A stretch of DNA of 64,000 nt from Nanobdellota archaeon. GTDB taxonomy: Archaea > Nanobdellota > Nanobdellia > Pacearchaeales > GW2011-AR1. The notes below the pieces were generated by a model. The model was not told the DNA's origin, did no database searches, and was given only the letters and a program-made list of their open reading frames with translations. The stretch lies in the NCBI GenBank assembly GCA_038045945.1, contig JBBSXC010000001.1:32001-96000 (forward strand), given 5' to 3'. Of the stretch, positions 24,226-48,645 are shown in pieces (position 1 is the stretch's first letter; each line of letters starts with the position of its first letter). Position numbers and translations under genes: made by a program.

Positions 24226-25044
24226 ATGGGGATCTATATACCGTATCCCTCTTCAAATCATACTACATCTGTAAGTGACTTTGTTATAACTACTTTAACT
24301 TCTAAATGGCCTTTAACTGCTAAAAAACTCCATTACCATATTAAGTCTTATCAGAATTGTTCTTATCAGGGCGTTCATAAAGCTCTTAAACAACTTTTAG
24401 AGTTTCAAGTTGTTGAAAAGGTTGGTAGAGAGTACTTTATCAGTAAGGATTGGTTACGATCCACTGCTAATCATTTGAAGCTTATTGAGCAGCAGTATAA
24501 TAAGCCTAATAAAGCGGTTAATAACACTTTTATTTTTAATAGTTTAGAAGAAGCTGAGAGGTTTAAGAACGATCTTCATTGGAATCATCTTTATCATGGT
24601 GGACCTCAGGTCCTTTATGCTCATGTTTATCATTTAAGGTCTCCTATTATTAATACTGAGAGCATTCTTAAAAAGATTGAGAAGGATAGAGCTTCTAATA
24701 ATGAGTCTTTTATTATTGTTCATGGCCAGACTAAGCTTGATAAGCATTGTAAGCATTTTTATGAGCAGTCTGGCAAGAATAATGTTGTACTTGGTAAAAT
24801 TTTAGAAAATGATTGTGAGTTAAGAGTTATGGGTGATACTATAACTCAGATGTATCTTCCTAAAGAGCTTATTAGTCAACTTGACGAGTTTTATGATTCT
24901 GCTTCTATTAATAATCTCGAATTATACAAATTGTATGGTTTATTCAAAGAACAACACCAGATCAGGATTACTGTAACTATTAATAAGGAAATGGCTAACT
25001 TGTTAAAAAAGCAGATTCTTCAGTCTTTTATATCTTCAAATTGA
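24226..25044 (+). CDS. wHTH transcriptional regulator with C-terminal effector domain
   Basis: WPLTAKKL, SYQGVHKALKQL, VMGDTITQ. Confidence 0.7.
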   Translation: MGIYIPYPSSNHTTSVSDFVITTLTSKWPLTAKKLHYHIKSYQNCSYQGVHKALKQLLEFQVVEKVGREYFISKDWLRSTANHLKLIEQQYNKPNKAVNNTFIFNSLEEAERFKNDLHWNHLYHGGPQVLYAHVYHLRSPIINTESILKKIEKDRASNNESFIIVHGQTKLDKHCKHFYEQSGKNNVVLGKILENDCELRVMGDTITQMYLPKELISQLDEFYDSASINNLELYKLYGLFKEQHQIRITVTINKEMANLLKKQILQSFISSN

Positions 25045-25732
25045 ATACTCTGATGGCATTGCCATGTAATATCAGGTTTTTTTCTTCTTGTGTTAATTCA
25101 GATTTTAACACTTTTAGTATTTCTATTTGGTGATCTGAGAATGGTACGTCTGATCCGAACATTATTCTGTCTGCCCCTACTTGTTTTGCTCTTAGTTTTA
25201 TTATGAATGGTGATGATACTATTGATGTTTCCACGTACACATTGTCGCATGCTTGCATTCTTGAGAAGAATTCGTCTGAGTCTCCAGCAAAATGTCCAAA
25301 CACGAATGGTATTTTTGGGTAACGTTTAGCTAATGTTAATAATCTTTCTGGATCTGTTGATGATAATCCTTCTTTTCTTGTGTGTATTATTATGGGTTTT
25401 GATTTTTCTGATAATATTTTGAAGAACCATGATAATTGTTCATCTAAAGGGTCAAAGTCTTCTCCTCTAGGGTGGAGTTTTATTGCTACAAAATCGTCTA
25501 ATACTCTAACAAGTATATTACGATCAATCACTTTAGGATTGCATCTTAAGACTGGTAATAAGTCTTGATGTAAATCTCTTAACTCTAAACTATGCTCAAA
25601 AACATCTCTCTGAGATTTTAGAGGAAAAACAAGTGATTTAGTCACACCATGTTTTTTCATTGATTCTAACAGTTGTAGTGAGTTAAGACCTGTTTTTCCT
25701 TCTCCAACATGTGTATGGACATCAATTATCAT
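25028..25732 (-). CDS. Amidohydrolase_2-family metal-dependent hydrolase
   Basis: DVHTH, KLHP, IIHT, FGH, MFGSDVPF. Confidence 0.88.
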   Translation of the reverse strand: MIIDVHTHVGEGKTGLNSLQLLESMKKHGVTKSLVFPLKSQRDVFEHSLELRDLHQDLLPVLRCNPKVIDRNILVRVLDDFVAIKLHPRGEDFDPLDEQLSWFFKILSEKSKPIIIHTRKEGLSSTDPERLLTLAKRYPKIPFVFGHFAGDSDEFFSRMQACDNVYVETSIVSSPFIIKLRAKQVGADRIMFGSDVPFSDHQIEILKVLKSELTQEEKNLILHGNAIRVFNLKI

Positions 25733-26280
25733 AATAATTCTACTCCTATACCAAATGCGTCTCCTCTTTCATATCTTAATACACTATATGTTCTATTTAA
25801 GTTGTCATCCTTTGATAATGGACGAGTTTTTGTCAGCATTCGTCCATAACATCCCTCGACTATTTTTCTTGTTATTTTATAATCTTTTATTTTTTCTTCA
25901 GATACGCATTCATCTAGTATGTTTCTTAATGAATGTTCAATAATAGGGTTTTGTGTTGTTGTTTTTATATTCCTTAGTTTACGTGATAGTCCTTCATCAA
26001 CTCTGCACCTCAAAAGGCTATAATAATGACCATTTTTGTGTTTTTCTTCTCTTACTACTGAGCCTGCTAAGTAAAAACTTCCTTCTGATAGGCTCATTGA
26101 TGAAAAGCCTACAGCCTTCCCACGTTCATAAGTAACAAATACTAATTCTGGTTCCTGTATATGCCTCTTTACTTCTTCTGGGCTCATTCCTGAACCAAAA
26201 GTAGCAATTGATAAGTCTACTAGTTCATTCATAACACCTTCTGGTATTGGATTTGTTGATTTTTCGAACTTGTTTATCAT
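25729..26280 (-). CDS. GNAT-fold acyltransferase
   Basis: AVGFS, YLAGSVVREEKHKNGHY (motif-A-like), TTTQNP. Confidence 0.7.
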   Translation of the reverse strand: MINKFEKSTNPIPEGVMNELVDLSIATFGSGMSPEEVKRHIQEPELVFVTYERGKAVGFSSMSLSEGSFYLAGSVVREEKHKNGHYYSLLRCRVDEGLSRKLRNIKTTTQNPIIEHSLRNILDECVSEEKIKDYKITRKIVEGCYGRMLTKTRPLSKDDNLNRTYSVLRYERGDAFGIGVELL

Positions 26281-26846
26281 AATGGTTCTCCTAAAATTAT
26301 TCTATTCTCTCTTGATGTTACAGGTAAAAATTTTATTTCGGCTTCGAACCCTTCGCTTTTAACTCTTCTTAATCTTGCTTCATCTATGAAGTGTCCAACT
26401 GATTGATAATTCTGAACGCTTTCACCACGCATTAAGTCAGCATATGCCAGAAGATTTCTTTGTGTATGACAACATGTTTGCACAACAAATGGACTTTTGT
26501 TTTTTACTGCTGCTGATATTAATTTGTCTGTTAATTCTCCACATAAGTGCAAACCTGTTAGGAATGCATCTGTTGGTATATCCGTATAATCTTCTATTCT
26601 GCCTACAAATCTAATAAATGGCTTCTTTATTAGTGCAGAATAATAATCAGCTTTTCTTATTAATGCTGGTTCAACCGTTCTTACTGACTTAACACTGTCA
26701 TGTCTTGATAGCATGTAAGCTAATTGATGATCACCTGAGCCTACATCAACTATTTCATAACCGCCTGATATAGAATCAAAAAATTTTGTTGCTTCTTTAT
26801 AAAAAGCGAGAACCTTGTCATCAAGGTTAATCTTTCTCTTAGACAT
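26277..26846 (-). CDS. Class I SAM methyltransferase (Methyltransf_32-like)
   Basis: IVDVGSG, GLHLCGELTD, TCCH, SRENRII; start overlaps the upstream stop. Confidence 0.8.
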   Translation of the reverse strand: MSKRKINLDDKVLAFYKEATKFFDSISGGYEIVDVGSGDHQLAYMLSRHDSVKSVRTVEPALIRKADYYSALIKKPFIRFVGRIEDYTDIPTDAFLTGLHLCGELTDKLISAAVKNKSPFVVQTCCHTQRNLLAYADLMRGESVQNYQSVGHFIDEARLRRVKSEGFEAEIKFLPVTSRENRIILGEPL

Positions 26847-28401
26847 CTCTAGCCACCATTCTACCGACATGGTACAAGTGTTTAATTAATCCATTAACTC
26901 TTTCATCTGTATGGTGATTCATTATTTGGACGTATAATCCTCCAAATCCTTCCGCTTTTTCGTTTAGCCCTACTTTTCTTTTTGATTCTTTGTATGCTGC
27001 TAAGTCTTCTAGTGTTCTTACTTTCATAGTATCACTGTGGGATATGTAGTATCTTTCTTCGTCTCCTGATTCATTAATCCTGTGATATACTCGATCATTA
27101 GCTTTATGTCCCCCTTCTTTCATCTCAAATGGTATTATTGGGCATGCTGAACCAGTTATTAATTTGAACGGGCTTTCTGGGCTTTCTAGTGCTTGTGATA
27201 ATTTTTTTGTTAGTCCTTGCATCCTTTCTGCTTCTTTCCTTAGACCGCTCATTCCTCTGCTTGTTAAATAAGCCCATAGCATTACCGCGTTATGGCCTGA
27301 TCTTGATATGAACATTCCGGGTAATTGTCCCATTTCTTCAACAAATTCATAACCTTGGCTTTTATCACTGTGTAAATATGGTGATTCTAGACTTGTCTCG
27401 TTCATTAGTTCTGTATCTCTGAACATTACAACTCCTCCCCCGTATACTGCCCCTGGTGTTTTGTGAGGGTCTAAAATTATTGCTTTTACTCCTTCTATCC
27501 CAAAGTCCCATTCTTGATGGATTGATTTTTCTCCAATAACAGATGAGAACAAAAATTGTTGTGCTGCATCCACAATTATTGGTGGAGTATTTTTTCCTCC
27601 GTATTTTTCTTTTAGTATTTCAAACATCTCACTTACTTTGTCAAGTCTTCCCTTACTAACGTCACCTACTGTTGGAATAACTGCTAGTATATTATCTCCT
27701 TGCTTGTGAATTTCATCAATTCTTTCTCTAAAACTTTTAAGGTCTGTTTGATATTTATTATCTAATCCATAGTGTACGACTGAGTCAATACCTAAGCCTA
27801 AAACATCTGCTGCTCTCTCAACACATAGATGTGCGTCAACGGGTACAAGAATTTTTGGTTTGTCTCCTAAGAAACTTTGTAAGCCTGAAGCTCTAATTTT
27901 TGGTTTATCATGTTTGTTATTGTTTGCGAATGAAAAACCTTCTTTTTCTCTGAAATATTTGTTTCTAAAGGAATAAAGTGCTTGAGTCATTGATTCGCTG
28001 CCTCCCGAGGTAAACCAGGCGTTGCATCTTCTAATGTTTGGGTGGTGCATTAATTCGCCAAGCATGCTCATTGTTTCCCTTTCTAACTCAAACATTCCTA
28101 CAAACATTGCAGGATCAACCAGGTTAGGGTGTATTCTTCCAACTACACTAGCTGCTAGACTATAAGAGAATTGGTCTGGTAAAGTTCCAGGTTTAGCGTC
28201 CATTATTCCTTTATCATAACGAACGGCGCATCTTTCAACTGCTTTTTCCACTTCTTCGACTAATAATTCTTTATCAATGCCTTTTTCTGGTATTTTAAAG
28301 CATCTTTTTCTTTGTGGAATTATATCAACTAACTTTTTTTTGTTTTGTTGTTTTTCTGAAGAATGATAGCGCTGTATTGGATCAAAAAAATCTGCTGTCA
28401 T
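26839..28401 (-). CDS. Group II PLP-dependent decarboxylase (MfnA/TDC/GAD-like)
   Basis: TSGGSES, AH..ERAA.VLG, VDAA, Schiff-base DPHK, SPYL, SRSG. Confidence 0.85.
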   Translation of the reverse strand: MTADFFDPIQRYHSSEKQQNKKKLVDIIPQRKRCFKIPEKGIDKELLVEEVEKAVERCAVRYDKGIMDAKPGTLPDQFSYSLAASVVGRIHPNLVDPAMFVGMFELERETMSMLGELMHHPNIRRCNAWFTSGGSESMTQALYSFRNKYFREKEGFSFANNNKHDKPKIRASGLQSFLGDKPKILVPVDAHLCVERAADVLGLGIDSVVHYGLDNKYQTDLKSFRERIDEIHKQGDNILAVIPTVGDVSKGRLDKVSEMFEILKEKYGGKNTPPIIVDAAQQFLFSSVIGEKSIHQEWDFGIEGVKAIILDPHKTPGAVYGGGVVMFRDTELMNETSLESPYLHSDKSQGYEFVEEMGQLPGMFISRSGHNAVMLWAYLTSRGMSGLRKEAERMQGLTKKLSQALESPESPFKLITGSACPIIPFEMKEGGHKANDRVYHRINESGDEERYYISHSDTMKVRTLEDLAAYKESKRKVGLNEKAEGFGGLYVQIMNHHTDERVNGLIKHLYHVGRMVARDV

Positions 28402-28403
28402 TT

Positions 28404-29438
28404 CTAATAGTATTTTAGAAGCATTACTTTTCTTACTTCTTCCATAGTTTTGCTTGCTTCCTCCCTTGCTTTTTCTCCTCCTTCTCTTAGTACTGTCTCT
28501 ATTGTTTTGTCTGATATGCTGTCAAACCTGTTTCTGTATTCTTTGTATGTTGTTGACATTAATGGTGGTAGTTTTTGTTTGCATTCTCCACATCCTAGTA
28601 TTGCTTGCCTACAACCGTAGTATACTTCAGCGAATTTTTCTTGGTTGTATATTCTGTGAAGGTCGTAAACGCTGCATTCGTCTGGGTTTCCTGCGACTTG
28701 CATACTTGTTCTTTTTGGGTCTATTCTCATCTTTGCAACTTTTTCTGATAATGTTTTTCCTGTGTCTTGTGGGCTTATCGTGTTTGCGTAACTCTTTGAC
28801 ATTTTTCTTCCGTCTGTTCCTAGTATTCTTGGCGCGTTACTTGTCAGTATTTCTGGTACTGGGAATATTGGTCCGTATGTTGCGTTGAATCTTTTTGCTA
28901 ATTCTTGGCATAGTTCTATGTGTGGTTTTTGGTCGTCTCCTACAGGTACATATTTTGCTTTGTGTACTAGTATGTCTGCTGCTTGTAATAATGGGTATCC
29001 TAAAAACCCGTAACTTACTTGGTCTGCTTCTAATTTTTTTCTGTTATGTCCTTCTTCTTTCATTATTTGTACGTATTCTGTGAATGTTGGCATTCTCTGA
29101 AGTCTTGCTACTGTGTTTAGCATTGATAACGCTACGTGTAACTCTGCGTGTTGTGGTACGTCTGATTGTACAAATATTGTTGATTTTTTTGGGTCTATTC
29201 CGAAAGCTAACCAGTCACGAACCATGTCATAAGTGTTTTTTCTTATTTCTTTTGATTCTGTGTTTGTTGTTAGTGCGTGCCAGTCTGCTACGAAGAATTT
29301 GCATGCGTATTCTTCTTGTAATTGTAACCATTTTCTTAATACTCCTTCTATGTGCCCTATGTGTAGTCTTCCTGTTGGTCTCATCCCGGATAATACTGTA
29401 GGTTTTAATTCATCATTAGTTTTTTCTTCTAAACTCAT
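28404..29438 (-). CDS. trpS: Tryptophanyl-tRNA synthetase, bacterial type
   Basis: SGMRPTGRLHIGH, ADWHALT, QS.V, YPLLQAADIL, VPVGDDQ, KMSKS. Confidence 0.93.
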   Translation of the reverse strand: MSLEEKTNDELKPTVLSGMRPTGRLHIGHIEGVLRKWLQLQEEYACKFFVADWHALTTNTESKEIRKNTYDMVRDWLAFGIDPKKSTIFVQSDVPQHAELHVALSMLNTVARLQRMPTFTEYVQIMKEEGHNRKKLEADQVSYGFLGYPLLQAADILVHKAKYVPVGDDQKPHIELCQELAKRFNATYGPIFPVPEILTSNAPRILGTDGRKMSKSYANTISPQDTGKTLSEKVAKMRIDPKRTSMQVAGNPDECSVYDLHRIYNQEKFAEVYYGCRQAILGCGECKQKLPPLMSTTYKEYRNRFDSISDKTIETVLREGGEKAREEASKTMEEVRKVMLLKYY

Positions 29439-29603
29439 AATTATTCATTATTAAAAAGAAACGAAATAGCTTTGGTTGAAGCTTATTCTTTTTTTAGTGT
29501 TATTATTATAAACTAATAGTTGATTTTTTCCTTTATTACTTTAGTATTATGTAGTTTTTCTTGCACAAAACCTTTTTATAGCTCATTATTCCTTGTTTAT
29601 TTA

Positions 29604-29690
29604 ATGGAAAGAAGTTTTGGTTCATTAGTCATGGTTTGTAGTATTATGCCTAGATGGACTTATACACCTTCTTCTCATATTTTTGGTTAA
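29604..29690 (+). CDS. Putative 28-aa leaderless peptide MERSFGSLVMVCSIMPRWTYTPSSHIFG
   Basis: TTTTTATA box at 29573-29580, then ATG; precedes a wHTH gene. Confidence 0.45.
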   Translation: MERSFGSLVMVCSIMPRWTYTPSSHIFG

Positions 29691-29746
29691 GAGGCTAATT
29701 TTTTAGCACTTCTTAAAAAAATAAACTTTTTTACCTCTAAACCAAA

Positions 29747-30347: not shown

Positions 30348-31418
30348 ATGATGTTAGCTGGTACATTCTCAAATACTGATATAAGAAAAGCCATAAGTAG
30401 CGGGGAGATTATTTCTAGAGCTGAAATAAGTGATGTTCAAGTTCAGCCTTCTTCTCTTGATTTAACTATTGGTAGAAAAATTTGGTGTTTACCTTACTCT
30501 TCAATACCTCAGGGGAGAATAGAGGATTACTTGGATGGGAAGAAGTCTGATGTTGAAGATAAAGACGAGACTTATTTGCATAAGAGAGTTTTATACGTTG
30601 CTGAAATAAATGAGGAGTTAAGATTACCTGGCGATGTTGAAGGAAAATCTGAGCCTAAGAGTTCAACTGGTAGGATTGATGTTCATGTAAGGCTTCTTAC
30701 GCAGGGCGGACAAGCTTATGATCAGGTGAGACCTGGTTATAATGGAAAATTGTTTTTAGAAATTTTTTCTAAAACTTTTGATTTAAAAATAAAGTCTGGC
30801 ACTTCTCTTAACCAGTTAAGATTATCTGATAATGGTTGCGAATTTTTGAGTAAGTCTAGGCTTGAGGAGTTATGCACTGATCAGAGAGTTATTTTTACCG
30901 GCGATGGTAAGGCTATTAGCCCTGATGAATTTTTGGAGGATGATTCTATATCTATGACTCTTGATCTTAGTGGTGATAATCCTGGCTATATTGGTAGGGA
31001 TGATGCTCCCCCTCTTGATCTTTCTCGCTTCGATCATGGTTTACTTAAATATTTTGATGTTCCTAAAGTTTTTGATGAGGGTCTTGTTACTAGGCCTGGT
31101 GCTTTTTATTTGCTTAGGTCTAGGGAGAGGGTTAGGATTCCTCGCAGGTATGGTGGTGAAATGGTTAGTATGGAAACAAATCTTGGTGAGTTTAGGGCTC
31201 ATTATGCTGGTTTTTTTGATCCTGGCTTTAATGCTCGTGCGGTTTTAGAGGTTAGGAATATTGGTGGTTCTCCTTTCTTGTTAAGGCATGGTCAAAGGAT
31301 TGCTAACCTCAAACTTTTAAGGTTGAAGACTAAGCCTTCAATAATTTATGGTAGGGGCATTGGTAGTAATTATCAGGGTCAGCAATTAAACCCCGGTAAA
31401 TATTTTAAAGCAATTTAG
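30348..31418 (+). CDS. dcd: dCTP deaminase (long two-domain DCD type)
   Basis: QPSSLDL, KSSTGRID, HYAGFFDPGF, YQGQ. Confidence 0.9.
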   Translation: MMLAGTFSNTDIRKAISSGEIISRAEISDVQVQPSSLDLTIGRKIWCLPYSSIPQGRIEDYLDGKKSDVEDKDETYLHKRVLYVAEINEELRLPGDVEGKSEPKSSTGRIDVHVRLLTQGGQAYDQVRPGYNGKLFLEIFSKTFDLKIKSGTSLNQLRLSDNGCEFLSKSRLEELCTDQRVIFTGDGKAISPDEFLEDDSISMTLDLSGDNPGYIGRDDAPPLDLSRFDHGLLKYFDVPKVFDEGLVTRPGAFYLLRSRERVRIPRRYGGEMVSMETNLGEFRAHYAGFFDPGFNARAVLEVRNIGGSPFLLRHGQRIANLKLLRLKTKPSIIYGRGIGSNYQGQQLNPGKYFKAI

Positions 31419-48573: not shown

Positions 48574-48645
48574 TGGGTCCGGAGAGATTCGAACTCTCAT
48601 CCTTCGCTCTGGAGGCGAAGAGACTAACCGTTATCCTACGGGCCC
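48574..48645 (-). tRNA. tRNA-Trp(CCA), intronless, G1-C72, A73
   Basis: Anticodon arm TTCGC-CTCCAGA-GCGAA; GTTCGAATC. Confidence 0.95.

What the first reader, a model, noticed from the sequence alone, without database searches (positions are those of the whole stretch)
25028..29438. Candidate undescribed Trp/arylamine metabolite operon: TrpRS - PLP decarboxylase - methyltransferase - GNAT - amidohydrolase
Seen: five minus-strand genes joined by a 2-nt gap, an 8-nt overlap and two ATGA overlaps, so very likely one translationally coupled operon, with four regulators around it. Known: group II PLP enzymes decarboxylate Trp/Tyr to tryptamine/tyramine; GNATs N-acylate arylalkylamines, and some (Fem-like) use aminoacyl-tRNA as donor; extra TrpRS copies occur in Trp-analogue clusters such as indolmycin. 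Inference: a decarboxylate-acylate-methylate pathway (melatonin-like logic without a hydroxylase) with an amidohydrolase for turnover, or Trp-tRNA-dependent amide synthesis. A small-molecule signal or toxin pathway would be striking in a biosynthetically minimal DPANN symbiont. Substrates are not shown by the sequence. The TrpRS looks more host-skewed than the downstream genes and may be the housekeeping copy.
Basis: partly seen in the sequence, partly recalled or inferred. Interest (0 to 1): 0.85.

Follow-up and report, generated by a model that had tools for sequence, protein, structure and literature searches.

The report
Extra TrpRS–decarboxylase operon in DPANN
A tiny groundwater archaeon carries a second, bacterial-type tryptophan-charging enzyme welded to a rare amino-acid decarboxylase and three helper enzymes, a conserved arrangement that resembles the tyramine and histamine gene clusters of lactic acid bacteria but has not been described in archaea.

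Summary
The five minus-strand genes and their junctions are as described. The interpretation needs revising. The TrpRS is not the housekeeping copy. It is an extra, bacterial-type, Thermotoga-like four-cysteine enzyme, and an archaeal TrpRS lies just outside the window. Its downstream partner belongs to a rare MfnA-like group II PLP decarboxylase family: 12 relatives in 5.8 billion proteins, and 3 of 401 sampled genomes of the phylum.

The operon is modular. The methyltransferase family follows aminoacyl-tRNA synthetase genes (Trp, Tyr, Lys, Arg, Phe), not decarboxylases. The GNAT and hydrolase form a separate recurrent pair. The GNAT folds like acyl-CoA acetyltransferases, not Fem-like enzymes. 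Sister genomes carry parallel bacterial-type TyrRS–decarboxylase–methyltransferase modules.

My best reading (0.45) is a tryptophan decarboxylase with a dedicated spare TrpRS, analogous to tyrS–tdcA in lactic acid bacteria, plus a tRNA- or synthetase-directed methyltransferase and an N-acylation/deacylation pair. The substrates are inferred, not shown. I rate it a new variant of a known kind.

The parts
28404..29438 (-). Auxiliary bacterial-type tryptophanyl-tRNA synthetase (344 aa). HIGH and KMSKS motifs are intact, and it carries a Thermotoga-type four-cysteine (putative [4Fe-4S]) motif.
   Evidence: TIGR00233 304.5 bits against 176.75. Best solved relative is 2G36, T. maritima TrpRS, at 301.6 bits. 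C255/C276/C283/C286, H26-G28 and K212-M-S-K-S216 are invariant in 34 sequences. The genome also has an archaeal TrpRS and TyrRS.
26839..28401 (-). Rare MfnA-like group II PLP-dependent decarboxylase (520 aa). Trp is the proposed substrate.
   Evidence: PF00282 103.9 bits. The MfnA model scores 114.2, below its cut-off of 299.4. There are 12 relatives at 30-36% identity. K314 (DPHK), D278, H191, Y342 and S366-R367 are invariant in 20 sequences. AF2 model: pLDDT 80, pTM 0.84; top folds are MfnA, GAD1 and DfoJ. TrpRS lies immediately upstream in 9 of 10 lineages.
26277..26846 (-). Small class I SAM methyltransferase of the Methyltransf_32 type, with weak TRM13 likeness. This subfamily travels with aminoacyl-tRNA synthetase genes.
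   Evidence: PF13679 34.8 bits against 27; TRM13 18.5 bits. Motifs DxGxGxG-like, HxCGxLTD and PCC[HY] are shared by 4 members. Found in 14 of 401 genomes, directly downstream of an aaRS in 9 and in the same aaRS cluster in 2 more.
25729..26280 (-). GNAT-fold N-acyltransferase (183 aa), of the acyl-CoA type by fold.
   Evidence: 178 representatives in the 1.84-billion-protein library. 29 of 50 aligned members hit PF00583. AF2 pLDDT 96.6. Top Foldseek hits are RimI 5ISV, CBU0801, 1Y9K and EctA 6SK1. Paired with a hydrolase in 9 of 23 other loci.
25028..25732 (-). Metal-dependent hydrolase of the amidohydrolase superfamily (234 aa), the partner of the GNAT.
   Evidence: PF04909 86.8 bits; TatD 27.8 bits. 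Nearest solved structures are 3CJP (47 bits) and ACMSD (about 27 bits). A 44%-identical homolog lies directly downstream of a GNAT homolog in G390.
25005..25010 (-). T6 run 18 nt after the last stop codon, a candidate archaeal terminator.
   Evidence: Sequence only; not tested.
29439..29746 (-). Upstream non-coding region of about 300 nt with A/T-rich TATA-like stretches, the presumed promoter region.
   Evidence: Read. No transcript data are available.
24226..25044 (+). Convergent 272-aa ORF whose N-terminal part recurs beside related clusters; a candidate dedicated regulator.
   Evidence: No Pfam hit. Relatives at 23-36% identity lie next to the G443 TrpRS cluster, the G454 TyrRS-MT cluster and the G256 MT locus.
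48574..48645 (-). The only tRNA-Trp(CCA) found in the genome. Its discriminator is A73 (archaeal identity), and the acceptor stem has a C4/A69 mismatch.
   Evidence: ARAGORN on the whole genome, with and without introns; sequence read.

Best explanation
The locus is a tryptophan-specific 'synthetase island' built from three modules. (1) The conserved core is an auxiliary bacterial-type TrpRS translationally coupled to an MfnA-like PLP decarboxylase. I infer that the decarboxylase converts L-tryptophan (or a close aromatic analogue) to tryptamine. The spare TrpRS would keep tRNA-Trp charged while the free Trp pool is drained and tryptamine, a competitive TrpRS inhibitor, accumulates; or it would sense Trp. 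This is the logic proposed for tyrS-tdcA and hisS-hdcA in lactic acid bacteria. (2) The small Methyltransf_32 enzyme belongs with the synthetase, not with the amine. It most likely methylates tRNA (TRM13-like) or another synthetase-related substrate. (3) The GNAT and the amidohydrolase form an N-acylation/deacylation pair acting on an amine or amino acid, plausibly Trp or tryptamine. Shown: gene order, family and fold assignments, the extra-copy status of the TrpRS, and conservation of the modules. Inferred: every substrate.
For: The TrpRS is an extra copy. The genome holds an archaeal TrpRS, an archaeal TyrRS and this bacterial-type TrpRS; the same holds in G094 and G443. The pair is conserved. 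Among 10 independent lineages with upstream sequence, 9 have a TrpRS-type gene immediately upstream of the decarboxylase: the window, G094/L008, L010=L011, L012, L013, L016 and G443 with bacterial-type TrpRS, and L014 and L015 with a divergent archaeal-type TrpRS paralog. A different TrpRS lineage recruited to the same decarboxylase family argues for a link to Trp rather than co-transfer. Pairwise identities of the two proteins correlate (r = 0.92; 6 of 720 permutations reach it). The TrpRS looks catalytically intact. The decarboxylase keeps the PLP lysine, the aspartate, the stacking histidine and the loop tyrosine that align with MfnA, and it has the group II fold. Parallel modules exist in the same class. 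A bacterial-type TyrRS (TIGR00234 368-370 bits) lies next to another roughly 560-aa group II decarboxylase in G154, G127, G292, G411 and G454; it is an extra copy in the 3 genomes checked. An extra ArgRS lies next to an arginine-deiminase-like gene in G335. Precedent: synthetase genes next to tyramine and histamine clusters are called 'a general feature', and tyrS is proposed as a Tyr sensor (PMC3315439, passages; PMC12607914, passages). The latter paper also states that tryptamine competitively inhibits TrpRS. Methyltransferase: 9 of 14 genomes have it directly downstream of an aaRS (TrpRS, TyrRS x4, LysRS x2, ArgRS, PheRS) and 2 more have it in the same cluster. GNAT-hydrolase: 9 of 23 other GNAT loci have an adjacent AstE/AspA-type or Amidohydro_2 hydrolase.
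Against: No substrate is shown. The decarboxylase scores far below the MfnA equivalog cut-off and is no nearer to known Trp decarboxylases (4OBU, 61 bits) than to MfnA (97), SPL or GAD. No amino-acid/amine antiporter lies in or near any of the clusters, unlike the lactic acid bacterial clusters, so the pH/energy rationale is missing. The only tRNA-Trp has A73, whereas bacterial TrpRS pairs with G73 tRNA (PMC5370408), so efficient charging by this enzyme is not assured. One lineage (L009) has the decarboxylase without any TrpRS in 10.4 kb. The L014 and L015 partner paralogs have a degenerate KMSKS motif, which fits a sensor or regulatory subunit better than a spare synthetase. Neighbours in some islands are biosynthetic rather than catabolic: chorismate-mutase-like, TrpD-like, prephenate dehydrogenase/dehydratase and an aminotransferase. 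Three of the 6 bacterial-type TrpRS genes in the sample are not next to this decarboxylase (G165, G039, G388).
Confidence: 0.45

Rival explanations
1. Antimetabolite pathway with self-resistance. The PLP enzyme, methyltransferase, GNAT and hydrolase make and/or detoxify a Trp-derived TrpRS inhibitor, either an indolmycin-like analogue or a modified aminoacyl-adenylate in the style of microcin C. The bacterial-type TrpRS is the insensitive target copy.
For: A second, evolutionarily distinct aaRS beside biosynthetic genes is the classical resistance signature; indolmycin-resistant TrpRS is an example (PMC9437257, passages). The enzyme set (MT-like, PLP decarboxylase, GNAT, hydrolase) matches microcin C's MccD, MccE-N, MccE-C and MccF by type (PMC12250964, passages). 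Two other bacterial-type TrpRS loci carry natural-product-like genes: radical SAM-SPASM with extra aaRS paralogs in G039, and an S66 (MccF-family) peptidase with a SAM_HAT enzyme in G388.
Against: Only TrpRS plus decarboxylase is conserved; the other genes vary from locus to locus. No adenylating MccB-like, NRPS or exporter gene was seen. The methyltransferase also follows LysRS, ArgRS and housekeeping-type PheRS. The decarboxylase and MT families differ from MccE-N and MccD. The histidine equivalent to the one I recall as the site of indolmycin-resistance mutations is invariant in 34 sequences (H54).
Confidence: 0.15
2. The TrpRS is not a spare translation enzyme. It either supplies activated Trp (Trp-AMP or Trp-tRNA) to the neighbouring enzymes, or it is a Trp/tRNA-sensing regulatory subunit of the decarboxylase, as HisZ is for HisG.
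For: The A73 tRNA-Trp is a poor formal match for a bacterial-type enzyme. The L014 and L015 partners are TrpRS paralogs with a degenerate KMSKS motif. Tight translational coupling suggests 1:1 production. The sensor idea has been proposed for tyrS. The tRNA-type methyltransferase sits in the same cluster.
Against: The window enzyme keeps every catalytic and anticodon-domain motif of an active TrpRS, and its closest solved relative charges tRNA efficiently (PMC2954223). A PLP decarboxylase cannot decarboxylate an esterified amino acid. The GNAT is of acyl-CoA type, not Fem or L/F-transferase type.
Confidence: 0.15
3. Tryptophan salvage island. The hydrolases (Amidohydro_2, AstE/AspA, M28) release Trp from N-acyl-Trp or peptides scavenged from the host, and the extra TrpRS captures it. 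The PLP enzyme and GNAT set the pool size or act on another compound.
For: A deacylase or peptidase is present in most loci: AstE/AspA in L012 and L016 (Pfam), and by BLAST likeness in L017, L018 and G165; M28 in L008; Amidohydro_2 here. LysRS-MT islands carry M20 DapE/ArgE-type deacylases or a dipeptide-epimerase-like gene. Terminal aromatic-amino-acid genes lie nearby in G127, G165 and G443. DPANN cells depend on imported amino acids (general knowledge).
Against: This gives no role to the most conserved partner, the decarboxylase, which destroys an amino acid. GNAT-hydrolase pairs mostly occur without any TrpRS: 19 of the 20 genomes with the GNAT lack this decarboxylase family.
Confidence: 0.15
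4. There is no common function. The genes are neighbours because the genome is compact and the block was transferred together.
For: Overlapping starts and stops are common in small genomes. The accessory genes vary between loci.
Against: The adjacency persists at 28-36% decarboxylase identity in 9 of 10 lineages and with two different TrpRS lineages. Analogous TyrRS and ArgRS modules exist. Composition gives no sign of a recent foreign block.
Confidence: 0.05

Closest known systems
Tyramine (tyrS-tdcA-tyrP-nhaC) and histamine (hdc-hisS) clusters of lactic acid bacteria
   Same: A cognate aminoacyl-tRNA synthetase gene sits immediately beside a PLP group II amino-acid decarboxylase. The synthetase is a second copy distinct from the housekeeping one (PMC3315439; PMC12607914).
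   Different: This is an archaeal host with Trp instead of Tyr or His. No precursor/product antiporter or Na+/H+ antiporter is present. No T-box is expected in archaea. The synthetase is of the other domain's type. The added methyltransferase, GNAT and hydrolase are absent from the bacterial clusters.
MfnA, the archaeal L-tyrosine/L-aspartate decarboxylase (PDB 3F9T, 6JY1)
   Same: It is the best solved sequence and fold relative (97 bits; Foldseek E 1.7e-19). The PLP lysine, aspartate, histidine and loop tyrosine align.
   Different: Identity is only about 20%, with about 120 extra residues. The score is 114 against the equivalog cut-off of 299. The family is rare (3 of 401 genomes), so it is not a housekeeping cofactor enzyme.
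Thermotoga maritima [4Fe-4S] TrpRS (PDB 2G36)
   Same: It is the closest solved relative (301.6 bits). A C-x21-C-x6-C-x2-C motif lies in the anticodon-binding domain, and HIGH and KMSKS are conserved (PMC2954223, which notes the motif occurs in one copy when several TrpRS genes are present).
   Different: Here it sits in an archaeon whose tRNA-Trp has A73. Cluster binding is inferred from the cysteines only.
Auxiliary TrpRS enzymes: Deinococcus TrpRS II with NOS, and indolmycin-resistant TrpRS of Streptomyces
   Same: A second TrpRS is tied to Trp-derived small-molecule chemistry or to resistance (PMC9437257).
   Different: The partner enzymes differ (no NOS, no indolmycin genes). The relation to 1YI8/2A4M is only family-level (about 166 bits).
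TrpRS-A / TrpRS-A-like / ORF1 clusters of groundwater DPANN and CPR (Mukai et al. 2017)
   Same: [quoted passage not shown] The L014, L015 and G039 paralogs may be of this kind.
   Different: That paper concerns archaeal-type paralogs. Its main text has no occurrence of 'decarboxylase', 'pyridoxal' or 'methyltransferase'. I did not test membership of the L014, L015 or G039 paralogs in TrpRS-A.
Microcin C maturation and immunity enzymes (MccD, MccE, MccF)
   Same: The same four enzyme types occur together around an aaRS-directed molecule: a class I MT-fold enzyme, a PLP decarboxylase, a GNAT that acetylates the aminoacyl alpha-amine, and a hydrolase (PMC12250964).
   Different: The protein families differ. 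No MccA or MccB equivalents were seen. This is a resemblance of logic only.
TRM13 tRNA 2'-O-methyltransferase / Pfam Methyltransf_32
   Same: The window protein passes PF13679 and has a weak TRM13 hit over the HxCGxLTD...CCH region. A close relative carries both Pfam labels (P0314).
   Different: No zinc-finger N-terminus was seen. The substrate is untested. The subfamily is small: 24 proteins found, and the two named by a source are both Woesearchaeota records.

Membership tests
Bacterial-type tryptophanyl-tRNA synthetase (TIGR00233, class Ic) | Whole-protein score above the curated cut-off | tested here: met
   304.5 bits against 176.75. Archaeal-type models score 62-122 bits, far below their cut-offs.
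Bacterial-type tryptophanyl-tRNA synthetase (TIGR00233, class Ic) | HIGH and KMSKS signature motifs | tested here: met
   LHIGH and RKMSKS were read. H26, G28 and K212-S216 are invariant in 34 sequences.
Bacterial-type tryptophanyl-tRNA synthetase (TIGR00233, class Ic) | Charges tRNA-Trp with tryptophan | not testable with these tools
   Only one tRNA-Trp was found, with A73. Bacterial systems use G73 (PMC5370408).
[4Fe-4S] TrpRS subfamily (T. maritima type) | C-x21-24-C-x6-C-x2-C motif in the anticodon-binding domain | tested here: met
   C255-x20-C276-x6-C283-x2-C286 aligns with the Cys motif of 2G36. All four cysteines are invariant in 34 sequences. The motif is defined in PMC2954223. The first spacing is one residue shorter than the published range by my count of the printed sequence. 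Metal content is not testable.
Group II PLP-dependent decarboxylase (PF00282) | Score above the gathering cut-off, and the group II fold | tested here: met
   103.9 bits against 27. Foldseek probability is 1.00 to MfnA, GAD1, DfoJ, SPL and TyrDC.
Group II PLP-dependent decarboxylase (PF00282) | Schiff-base lysine, pyridine-N aspartate, stacking histidine and catalytic-loop tyrosine | tested here: met
   K314 (DPHK), D278, H191 and Y342 are invariant in 20 family members and align with the MfnA motifs. The functional roles of these residues are recalled from the literature on the family.
MfnA (TIGR03812) tyrosine/aspartate decarboxylase | Equivalog score cut-off | tested here: not met
   114.2 bits against 299.4. 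It is not filed as MfnA.
Tryptophan decarboxylase activity | Decarboxylates L-Trp to tryptamine | not testable with these tools
   Inferred only from linkage to TrpRS in 9 of 10 lineages.
Pfam Methyltransf_32 (PF13679) | Score above the cut-off, and a SAM-binding glycine-rich motif | tested here: met
   34.8 bits against 27. VDVGSGD aligns with DLCAGDG in relatives.
TRM13 tRNA 2'-O-methyltransferase (PF05206) | Score above the cut-off | tested here: not met
   18.5 bits against 26. This is a lead only; the tRNA-directed role is inferred from aaRS linkage.
GNAT acyl-CoA N-acyltransferase | Pfam GNAT model above the cut-off | tested here: inconclusive
   The window protein scores 19.7 against 23.6, but 29 of 50 family members match PF00583 at E up to 0.01 (best 1.6e-7).
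GNAT acyl-CoA N-acyltransferase | GNAT fold | tested here: met
   AF2 pLDDT 96.6. Foldseek top hits are RimI, EctA, AAC(6') and Gcn5/PCAF.
GNAT acyl-CoA N-acyltransferase | Q/R-x-x-G-x-G/A acyl-CoA pyrophosphate loop | tested here: inconclusive
   The family consensus is QGxGxY; the window protein has HKNGHY at that place.
Fem / aminoacyl-tRNA transferase type GNAT | Fold likeness to Fem, L/F-transferase or related enzymes | tested here: not met
   None appears among the listed Foldseek matches. The protein is a single 183-aa domain.
Amidohydrolase superfamily (PF04909 Amidohydro_2) | Score above the cut-off, and an N-terminal HxH metal motif | tested here: met
   86.8 bits against 26.4. DVHTH was read at residues 4-8.
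Lactic-acid-bacteria-type biogenic-amine cluster | A cognate aaRS gene adjacent to the decarboxylase, present as an extra copy | tested here: met
Lactic-acid-bacteria-type biogenic-amine cluster | An amino-acid/amine antiporter in the cluster | tested here: not met
   No transporter was seen in the window cluster or its flanks, nor next to the pair in the other loci.
Resistance-gene-marked biosynthetic cluster | A second, divergent copy of the target enzyme beside biosynthetic genes | tested here: inconclusive
   The second divergent TrpRS criterion is met. No recognised core biosynthetic enzyme or exporter was found, and the gene content varies.

The most novel reading that the evidence does not exclude
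These are 'private synthetase islands'. A DPANN cell acquires a bacterial-type synthetase (for Trp, Tyr, Lys or Arg) together with a dedicated TRM13-like methyltransferase that marks the cognate archaeal tRNA, for example in the acceptor stem, where this tRNA-Trp has a C4/A69 mismatch. The foreign enzyme can then charge that tRNA, or a separate methyl-tagged tRNA pool is created. The coupled catabolic enzyme (decarboxylase or deiminase) and the GNAT/hydrolase pair set the free amino-acid level. This would be a previously unrecognised way of wiring amino-acid supply to translation in host-dependent archaea.
Probability: 0.15. Interest if true: 0.85.

Novelty: new variant of a known kind. Interest (0 to 1): 0.62.

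Why it matters
The locus extends a principle known only from a few Firmicutes, a spare cognate synthetase wired to an amino-acid decarboxylase, to ultra-small archaea, and to tryptophan, for which I found no described example. It also defines a rare new decarboxylase family with a strong, testable substrate prediction. It shows that a small methyltransferase family is linked to aminoacyl-tRNA synthetase genes of five specificities. And it gives a concrete case of a bacterial-type TrpRS living beside an A73 tRNA-Trp, which bears on how rigid tRNA identity rules are across domains. For DPANN biology it points to active management of scarce aromatic amino acids, or to production of aromatic amines that a host could sense.

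Tried and rejected
(1) Complex prediction of TrpRS with the decarboxylase (collected) gave 'no answer', with score 0.00 in both runs. It is not evidence either way.

(2) Expression: no RNA holder was listed for the stretch. The four DNA holders come from one groundwater study, and two are possible sources of the assembly. I did not lay reads.

(4) Recent foreign origin of the block: GC, GC3, skews and codon-usage distance of all five genes lie within the genome's range (|z| below 2; codon distance at the 7th to 67th percentile). Rejected as unsupported.

(5) Fem-like GNAT: rejected on fold.

(6) MfnA identity: rejected on score.

(7) A degraded TrpRS upstream of the L009 decarboxylase: tblastn found nothing better than E = 3.6.

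(8) The ESM Atlas look-up gave only generic group II decarboxylase neighbours.

(9) Sequence search of the methyltransferase against solved structures gave one marginal hit, 7QIU at E = 0.041.

(10) Literature. Zero papers hold 'tryptophanyl-tRNA synthetase' + 'decarboxylase' + 'DPANN'. None of the 12 listed papers from a DPANN/decarboxylase/tryptamine search held both a DPANN term and a decarboxylase term. PMC8204110 has no occurrence of the synthetase or decarboxylase terms.

(11) A second tRNA-Trp with G73: none was found by ARAGORN in the 93%-complete genome.

(12) In the third, weak stretch of the alignment to MfnA, the MfnA arginine mutated in 6M4Y appears to align with a tyrosine of this family. 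That stretch scores too low (2.6 bits) to use.

Full report
**Observation.** ORF listing and direct reading of the minus strand confirm five consecutive genes at 28404-29438, 26839-28401, 26277-26846 (alternative start 26870), 25729-26280 and 25028-25732. The junctions are a 2-nt gap, an ATGTCTAA overlap and two ATGA overlaps. Family assignments are:
- TrpRS: PF00579 217.9 bits; TIGR00233 304.5 bits against a cut-off of 176.75.
- Group II PLP decarboxylase: PF00282 103.9 bits.
- Methyltransf_32: PF13679 34.8 bits.
- A sub-threshold GNAT: 19.7 bits against 23.6.
- Amidohydro_2: PF04909 86.8 bits.

A T6 run follows the last gene. The flanks hold a threshold TrmB-type HTH protein and ORFs without family hits. 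No transporter is present.

**The organism and the TrpRS.** The window lies in an 847-kb, 34.6% GC, 93%-complete genome. That genome has archaeal-type TyrRS and TrpRS and intron-bearing tRNAs. Named relatives of the cluster proteins are Woesearchaeota, Nanoarchaeota and Pacearchaeota records.

The genome has three class Ic synthetases. One is an archaeal TyrRS (NF006330, 395 bits). One is an archaeal TrpRS just beyond the window's end (NF008927, 512.5 bits against 478). The third is the cluster gene, which is bacterial-type.

Its best solved relative is the T. maritima enzyme 2G36 (301.6 bits). The four cysteines that bind a [4Fe-4S] cluster there (PMC2954223, abstract and passages) are invariant in 34 aligned sequences, as are HIGH and KMSKS.

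In a maximum-likelihood tree of 49 rows, the window protein falls in a 28-row clade with 100/99 support. That clade holds all the decarboxylase-linked copies and is set among Firmicutes- and Thermotogota-type sequences.

The only tRNA-Trp found has the archaeal A73 discriminator. Bacterial systems use G73 (PMC5370408, passages).

**The decarboxylase.** It belongs to a very small family. A search of 5.8 billion clustered proteins gave 12 relatives at 30-36% identity, and the next hit was at E = 8e-14. The family was not found in 60 close relatives' genomes, apart from two weak hits. True members occur in 3 of 401 high-quality genomes sampled from the phylum.

The PLP lysine (DPHK), aspartate, histidine and loop tyrosine are invariant and align with MfnA. 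The AF2 model (pLDDT 80, pTM 0.84) matches MfnA, GAD1, DfoJ, sphingosine-phosphate lyases and bacterial tyrosine decarboxylases. The Atlas gives the same picture. The MfnA equivalog cut-off is not met (114 against 299). Nothing in sequence or fold names the substrate.

**Conserved linkage.** I fetched one genome locus and ten metagenome loci encoding family members, and G443 from the phylum scan. After merging L010 and L011 (99.3% identical DNA), ten lineages have sequence upstream of the decarboxylase.
- Seven have a bacterial-type TrpRS immediately upstream: the window, L008/G094, L010=L011, L012, L013, L016 and G443.
- Two distant, longer family members (L014 and L015) have a divergent archaeal-type TrpRS paralog there instead (PF00579 77 and 70 bits; NF008925 252 and 184 bits), with a degenerate KMSKS motif.
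- L009 has none.
- L017 and L018 are cut at the contig end.

G094 and G443 also keep archaeal TrpRS and TyrRS genes. TrpRS and decarboxylase identities co-vary across six pairs (r = 0.92; 6 of 720 permutations reach it). That shows inheritance as a unit, not physical contact.

**The other three genes are modular.** Downstream content differs by locus:
- methyltransferase homolog in L013;
- GNAT homolog followed by an AstE/AspA deacylase in L016, and by BLAST likeness in L017;
- AstE/AspA plus another methyltransferase in L012;
- methyltransferase plus an M28 peptidase in L008;
- chorismate-mutase-like, TrpD-like, BtpA and methyltransferase genes in G443.

The GNAT family is broader: 178 representatives, found in 20 of 401 genomes. 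In the 23 other loci it sits next to an AstE/AspA-like gene in 8, and next to a 44%-identical homolog of the window amidohydrolase in 1. So GNAT plus hydrolase is a recurrent pair of its own. The GNAT model (pLDDT 96.6) resembles RimI, EctA and AAC(6'), not aminoacyl-tRNA transferases.

The methyltransferase subfamily is small: 24 proteins, and the two that carry a source name are both Woesearchaeota records. It occurs in 14 of 401 genomes.
- In 9 genomes it lies directly downstream of a synthetase gene: TrpRS in G165; bacterial-type TyrRS in G154, G292, G411 and G454; bacterial class II LysRS in G363 and G263; ArgRS in G335; and PheRS alpha/beta in G253.
- In G000 and G443 it is in the same synthetase cluster.
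- G094 (contig break), G256 and G340 are the exceptions.

G335 has two ArgRS genes, and G363 also has a class I LysRS. The common denominator of this enzyme is therefore a synthetase, not a decarboxylase. Together with the weak TRM13 likeness, this points to tRNA or a synthetase-related substrate.

**Parallel modules.** Five of the 13 weaker decarboxylase hits of the phylum scan are a different, roughly 560-aa group II decarboxylase adjacent to a bacterial-type TyrRS (TIGR00234 368-370 bits). In the three genomes checked this TyrRS is an extra copy. In four genomes it is followed by the methyltransferase. An arginine-deiminase-like gene precedes the extra ArgRS of G335.

Bacterial-type TrpRS itself occurs in 6 of 401 genomes. 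Besides the three decarboxylase loci, these are G165 (TrpRS-methyltransferase-GNAT-AstE, with a chorismate mutase type II gene next door), G039 (radical SAM-SPASM, a Zn-dehydrogenase and two tandem archaeal-type TrpRS paralogs) and G388 (a degenerate synthetase-like gene, a SAM_HAT enzyme and an S66 peptidase).

**Interpretation.** The closest known arrangement is the tyramine and histamine clusters of lactic acid bacteria. There a second cognate synthetase gene lies beside the decarboxylase and is thought to sense the amino acid or protect translation (PMC3315439, passages; PMC12607914, passages). I recall, without a call, that some arginine deiminase clusters of lactic acid bacteria also carry an argS gene.

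By that analogy the decarboxylase should act on tryptophan. Its product tryptamine is a competitive TrpRS inhibitor, which gives a reason for a second, differently built TrpRS.

Several facts weigh against a simple transfer of the model:
- no antiporter is present;
- the tRNA discriminator is A73;
- the L014 and L015 paralogs have degenerate motifs;
- L009 lacks a TrpRS;
- some islands have biosynthetic-type neighbours.

Rivals are a resistance-marked antimetabolite pathway (the enzyme types mirror microcin C's MccD/E/F; PMC12250964; review PMC9437257), a TrpRS that donates activated Trp or regulates the decarboxylase, and a salvage island. I put the main reading at 0.45.

**Novelty.** I found no description of a TrpRS-decarboxylase pairing or of the synthetase-linked methyltransferase. 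The searches were made; PMC5370408 (sections read), which treats extra TrpRS paralogs in groundwater DPANN, does not mention decarboxylases or methyltransferases. Papers outside the held library and supplementary files were not seen. PMC2954223's supplementary list of organisms with the cysteine motif could bear on the TrpRS distribution. The kind (a synthetase-linked amino-acid catabolic cluster) is known. The host domain, the amino acid, the decarboxylase family and the added modules are new.

**Limits.** All functions are inferred from sequence, fold and neighbourhood. The 401 genomes are a sample, and relatives are not independent. Most loci are short metagenome contigs. ORFs in loci were called mechanically and labelled by BLAST to a small query set, with Pfam or NCBIfam checks on selected ones only.

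Noticed in passing
window 1-64000: Third-position A-versus-T bias follows the DNA strand. Nearly every plus-strand gene has T3 above A3 (down to -0.81), and nearly every minus-strand gene has A3 above T3 (up to 0.87). Genome-wide the distribution is bimodal. The stretch from about 22.8 to 36 kb shows a weaker skew, apart from the TrpRS.
   Followed up: partly
window 48574-48645 (-): The single tRNA-Trp has a C4/A69 mismatch in the acceptor stem as well as A73. This is of possible interest given the TRM13-like methyltransferase; TRM13 acts at position 4 by my recollection.
   Followed up: no
window 28384-28390 (-): A T7 run lies on the coding strand within the first ten codons of the decarboxylase, just after the TrpRS stop. 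It could act as an archaeal termination or attenuation signal between the two genes.
   Followed up: no
L082 (G039:C1:18000-34000): A bacterial-type TrpRS is followed by a radical SAM-SPASM gene. On the other strand lie two tandem archaeal-type TrpRS paralogs (366 and 349 aa) and a Zn-dehydrogenase. These may be the TrpRS-A / TrpRS-A-like kind described by Mukai et al. 2017.
   Followed up: partly
L083 (G388:C18:1-15000): A long-branch bacterial-type TrpRS is followed by a degenerate synthetase-like ORF (341 aa), a SAM hydroxide adenosyltransferase-type protein and an S66 (LdcA/MccF-family) peptidase.
   Followed up: partly
L107, L108, L106, L111 (G292, G154, G454, G256): A 674-705-aa protein with a PPDK_N ATP-binding domain recurs beside the TyrRS-decarboxylase-methyltransferase modules. 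In G154 and G454 it comes with a roughly 200-aa partner.
   Followed up: partly
L104, L105, L103, L110 (G363, G263, G335, G253): The same methyltransferase subfamily sits directly after a bacterial class II LysRS (with a dipeptide-epimerase-like gene or M20 DapE/ArgE-type deacylases upstream), after a second ArgRS (with an arginine-deiminase-like gene upstream), and after archaeal PheRS alpha/beta.
   Followed up: partly
L109 3234-4966 (G411:C10): The TyrRS-linked decarboxylase is split into two overlapping ORFs (315 and 286 aa). This could be a frameshift, a sequencing error or a decaying gene.
   Followed up: no
L053 782-1420, L056 2221-2910, L060 139-825, L102 6900-7538: An unannotated 212-229-aa protein family recurs next to GNAT-AstE pairs and next to the G340 methyltransferase fragment. 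Two members were scanned against Pfam and gave no hit.
   Followed up: partly
L112 (G127:C4:29000-45000): The TyrRS-decarboxylase pair lies within about 4 kb of prephenate dehydrogenase, two prephenate-dehydratase-like genes and a class I/II aminotransferase. These are the terminal Tyr/Phe biosynthesis steps, in a roughly 1.1-Mb DPANN genome.
   Followed up: partly
L085 11422-13400, L101 1278-4061, L009 2683-4676: A TrpD-family (PF00591) protein of about 400 aa and a BtpA-family TIM-barrel protein recur together beside the decarboxylase or methyltransferase in three lineages. In G094 a PfkB kinase lies between them.
   Followed up: partly
window 30348-31418 (+): An ordinary two-domain dCTP deaminase (DCD_N plus DCD_C; NF005734 274 bits, just under its cut-off of 283) lies upstream of the cluster on the other strand.
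   Followed up: no
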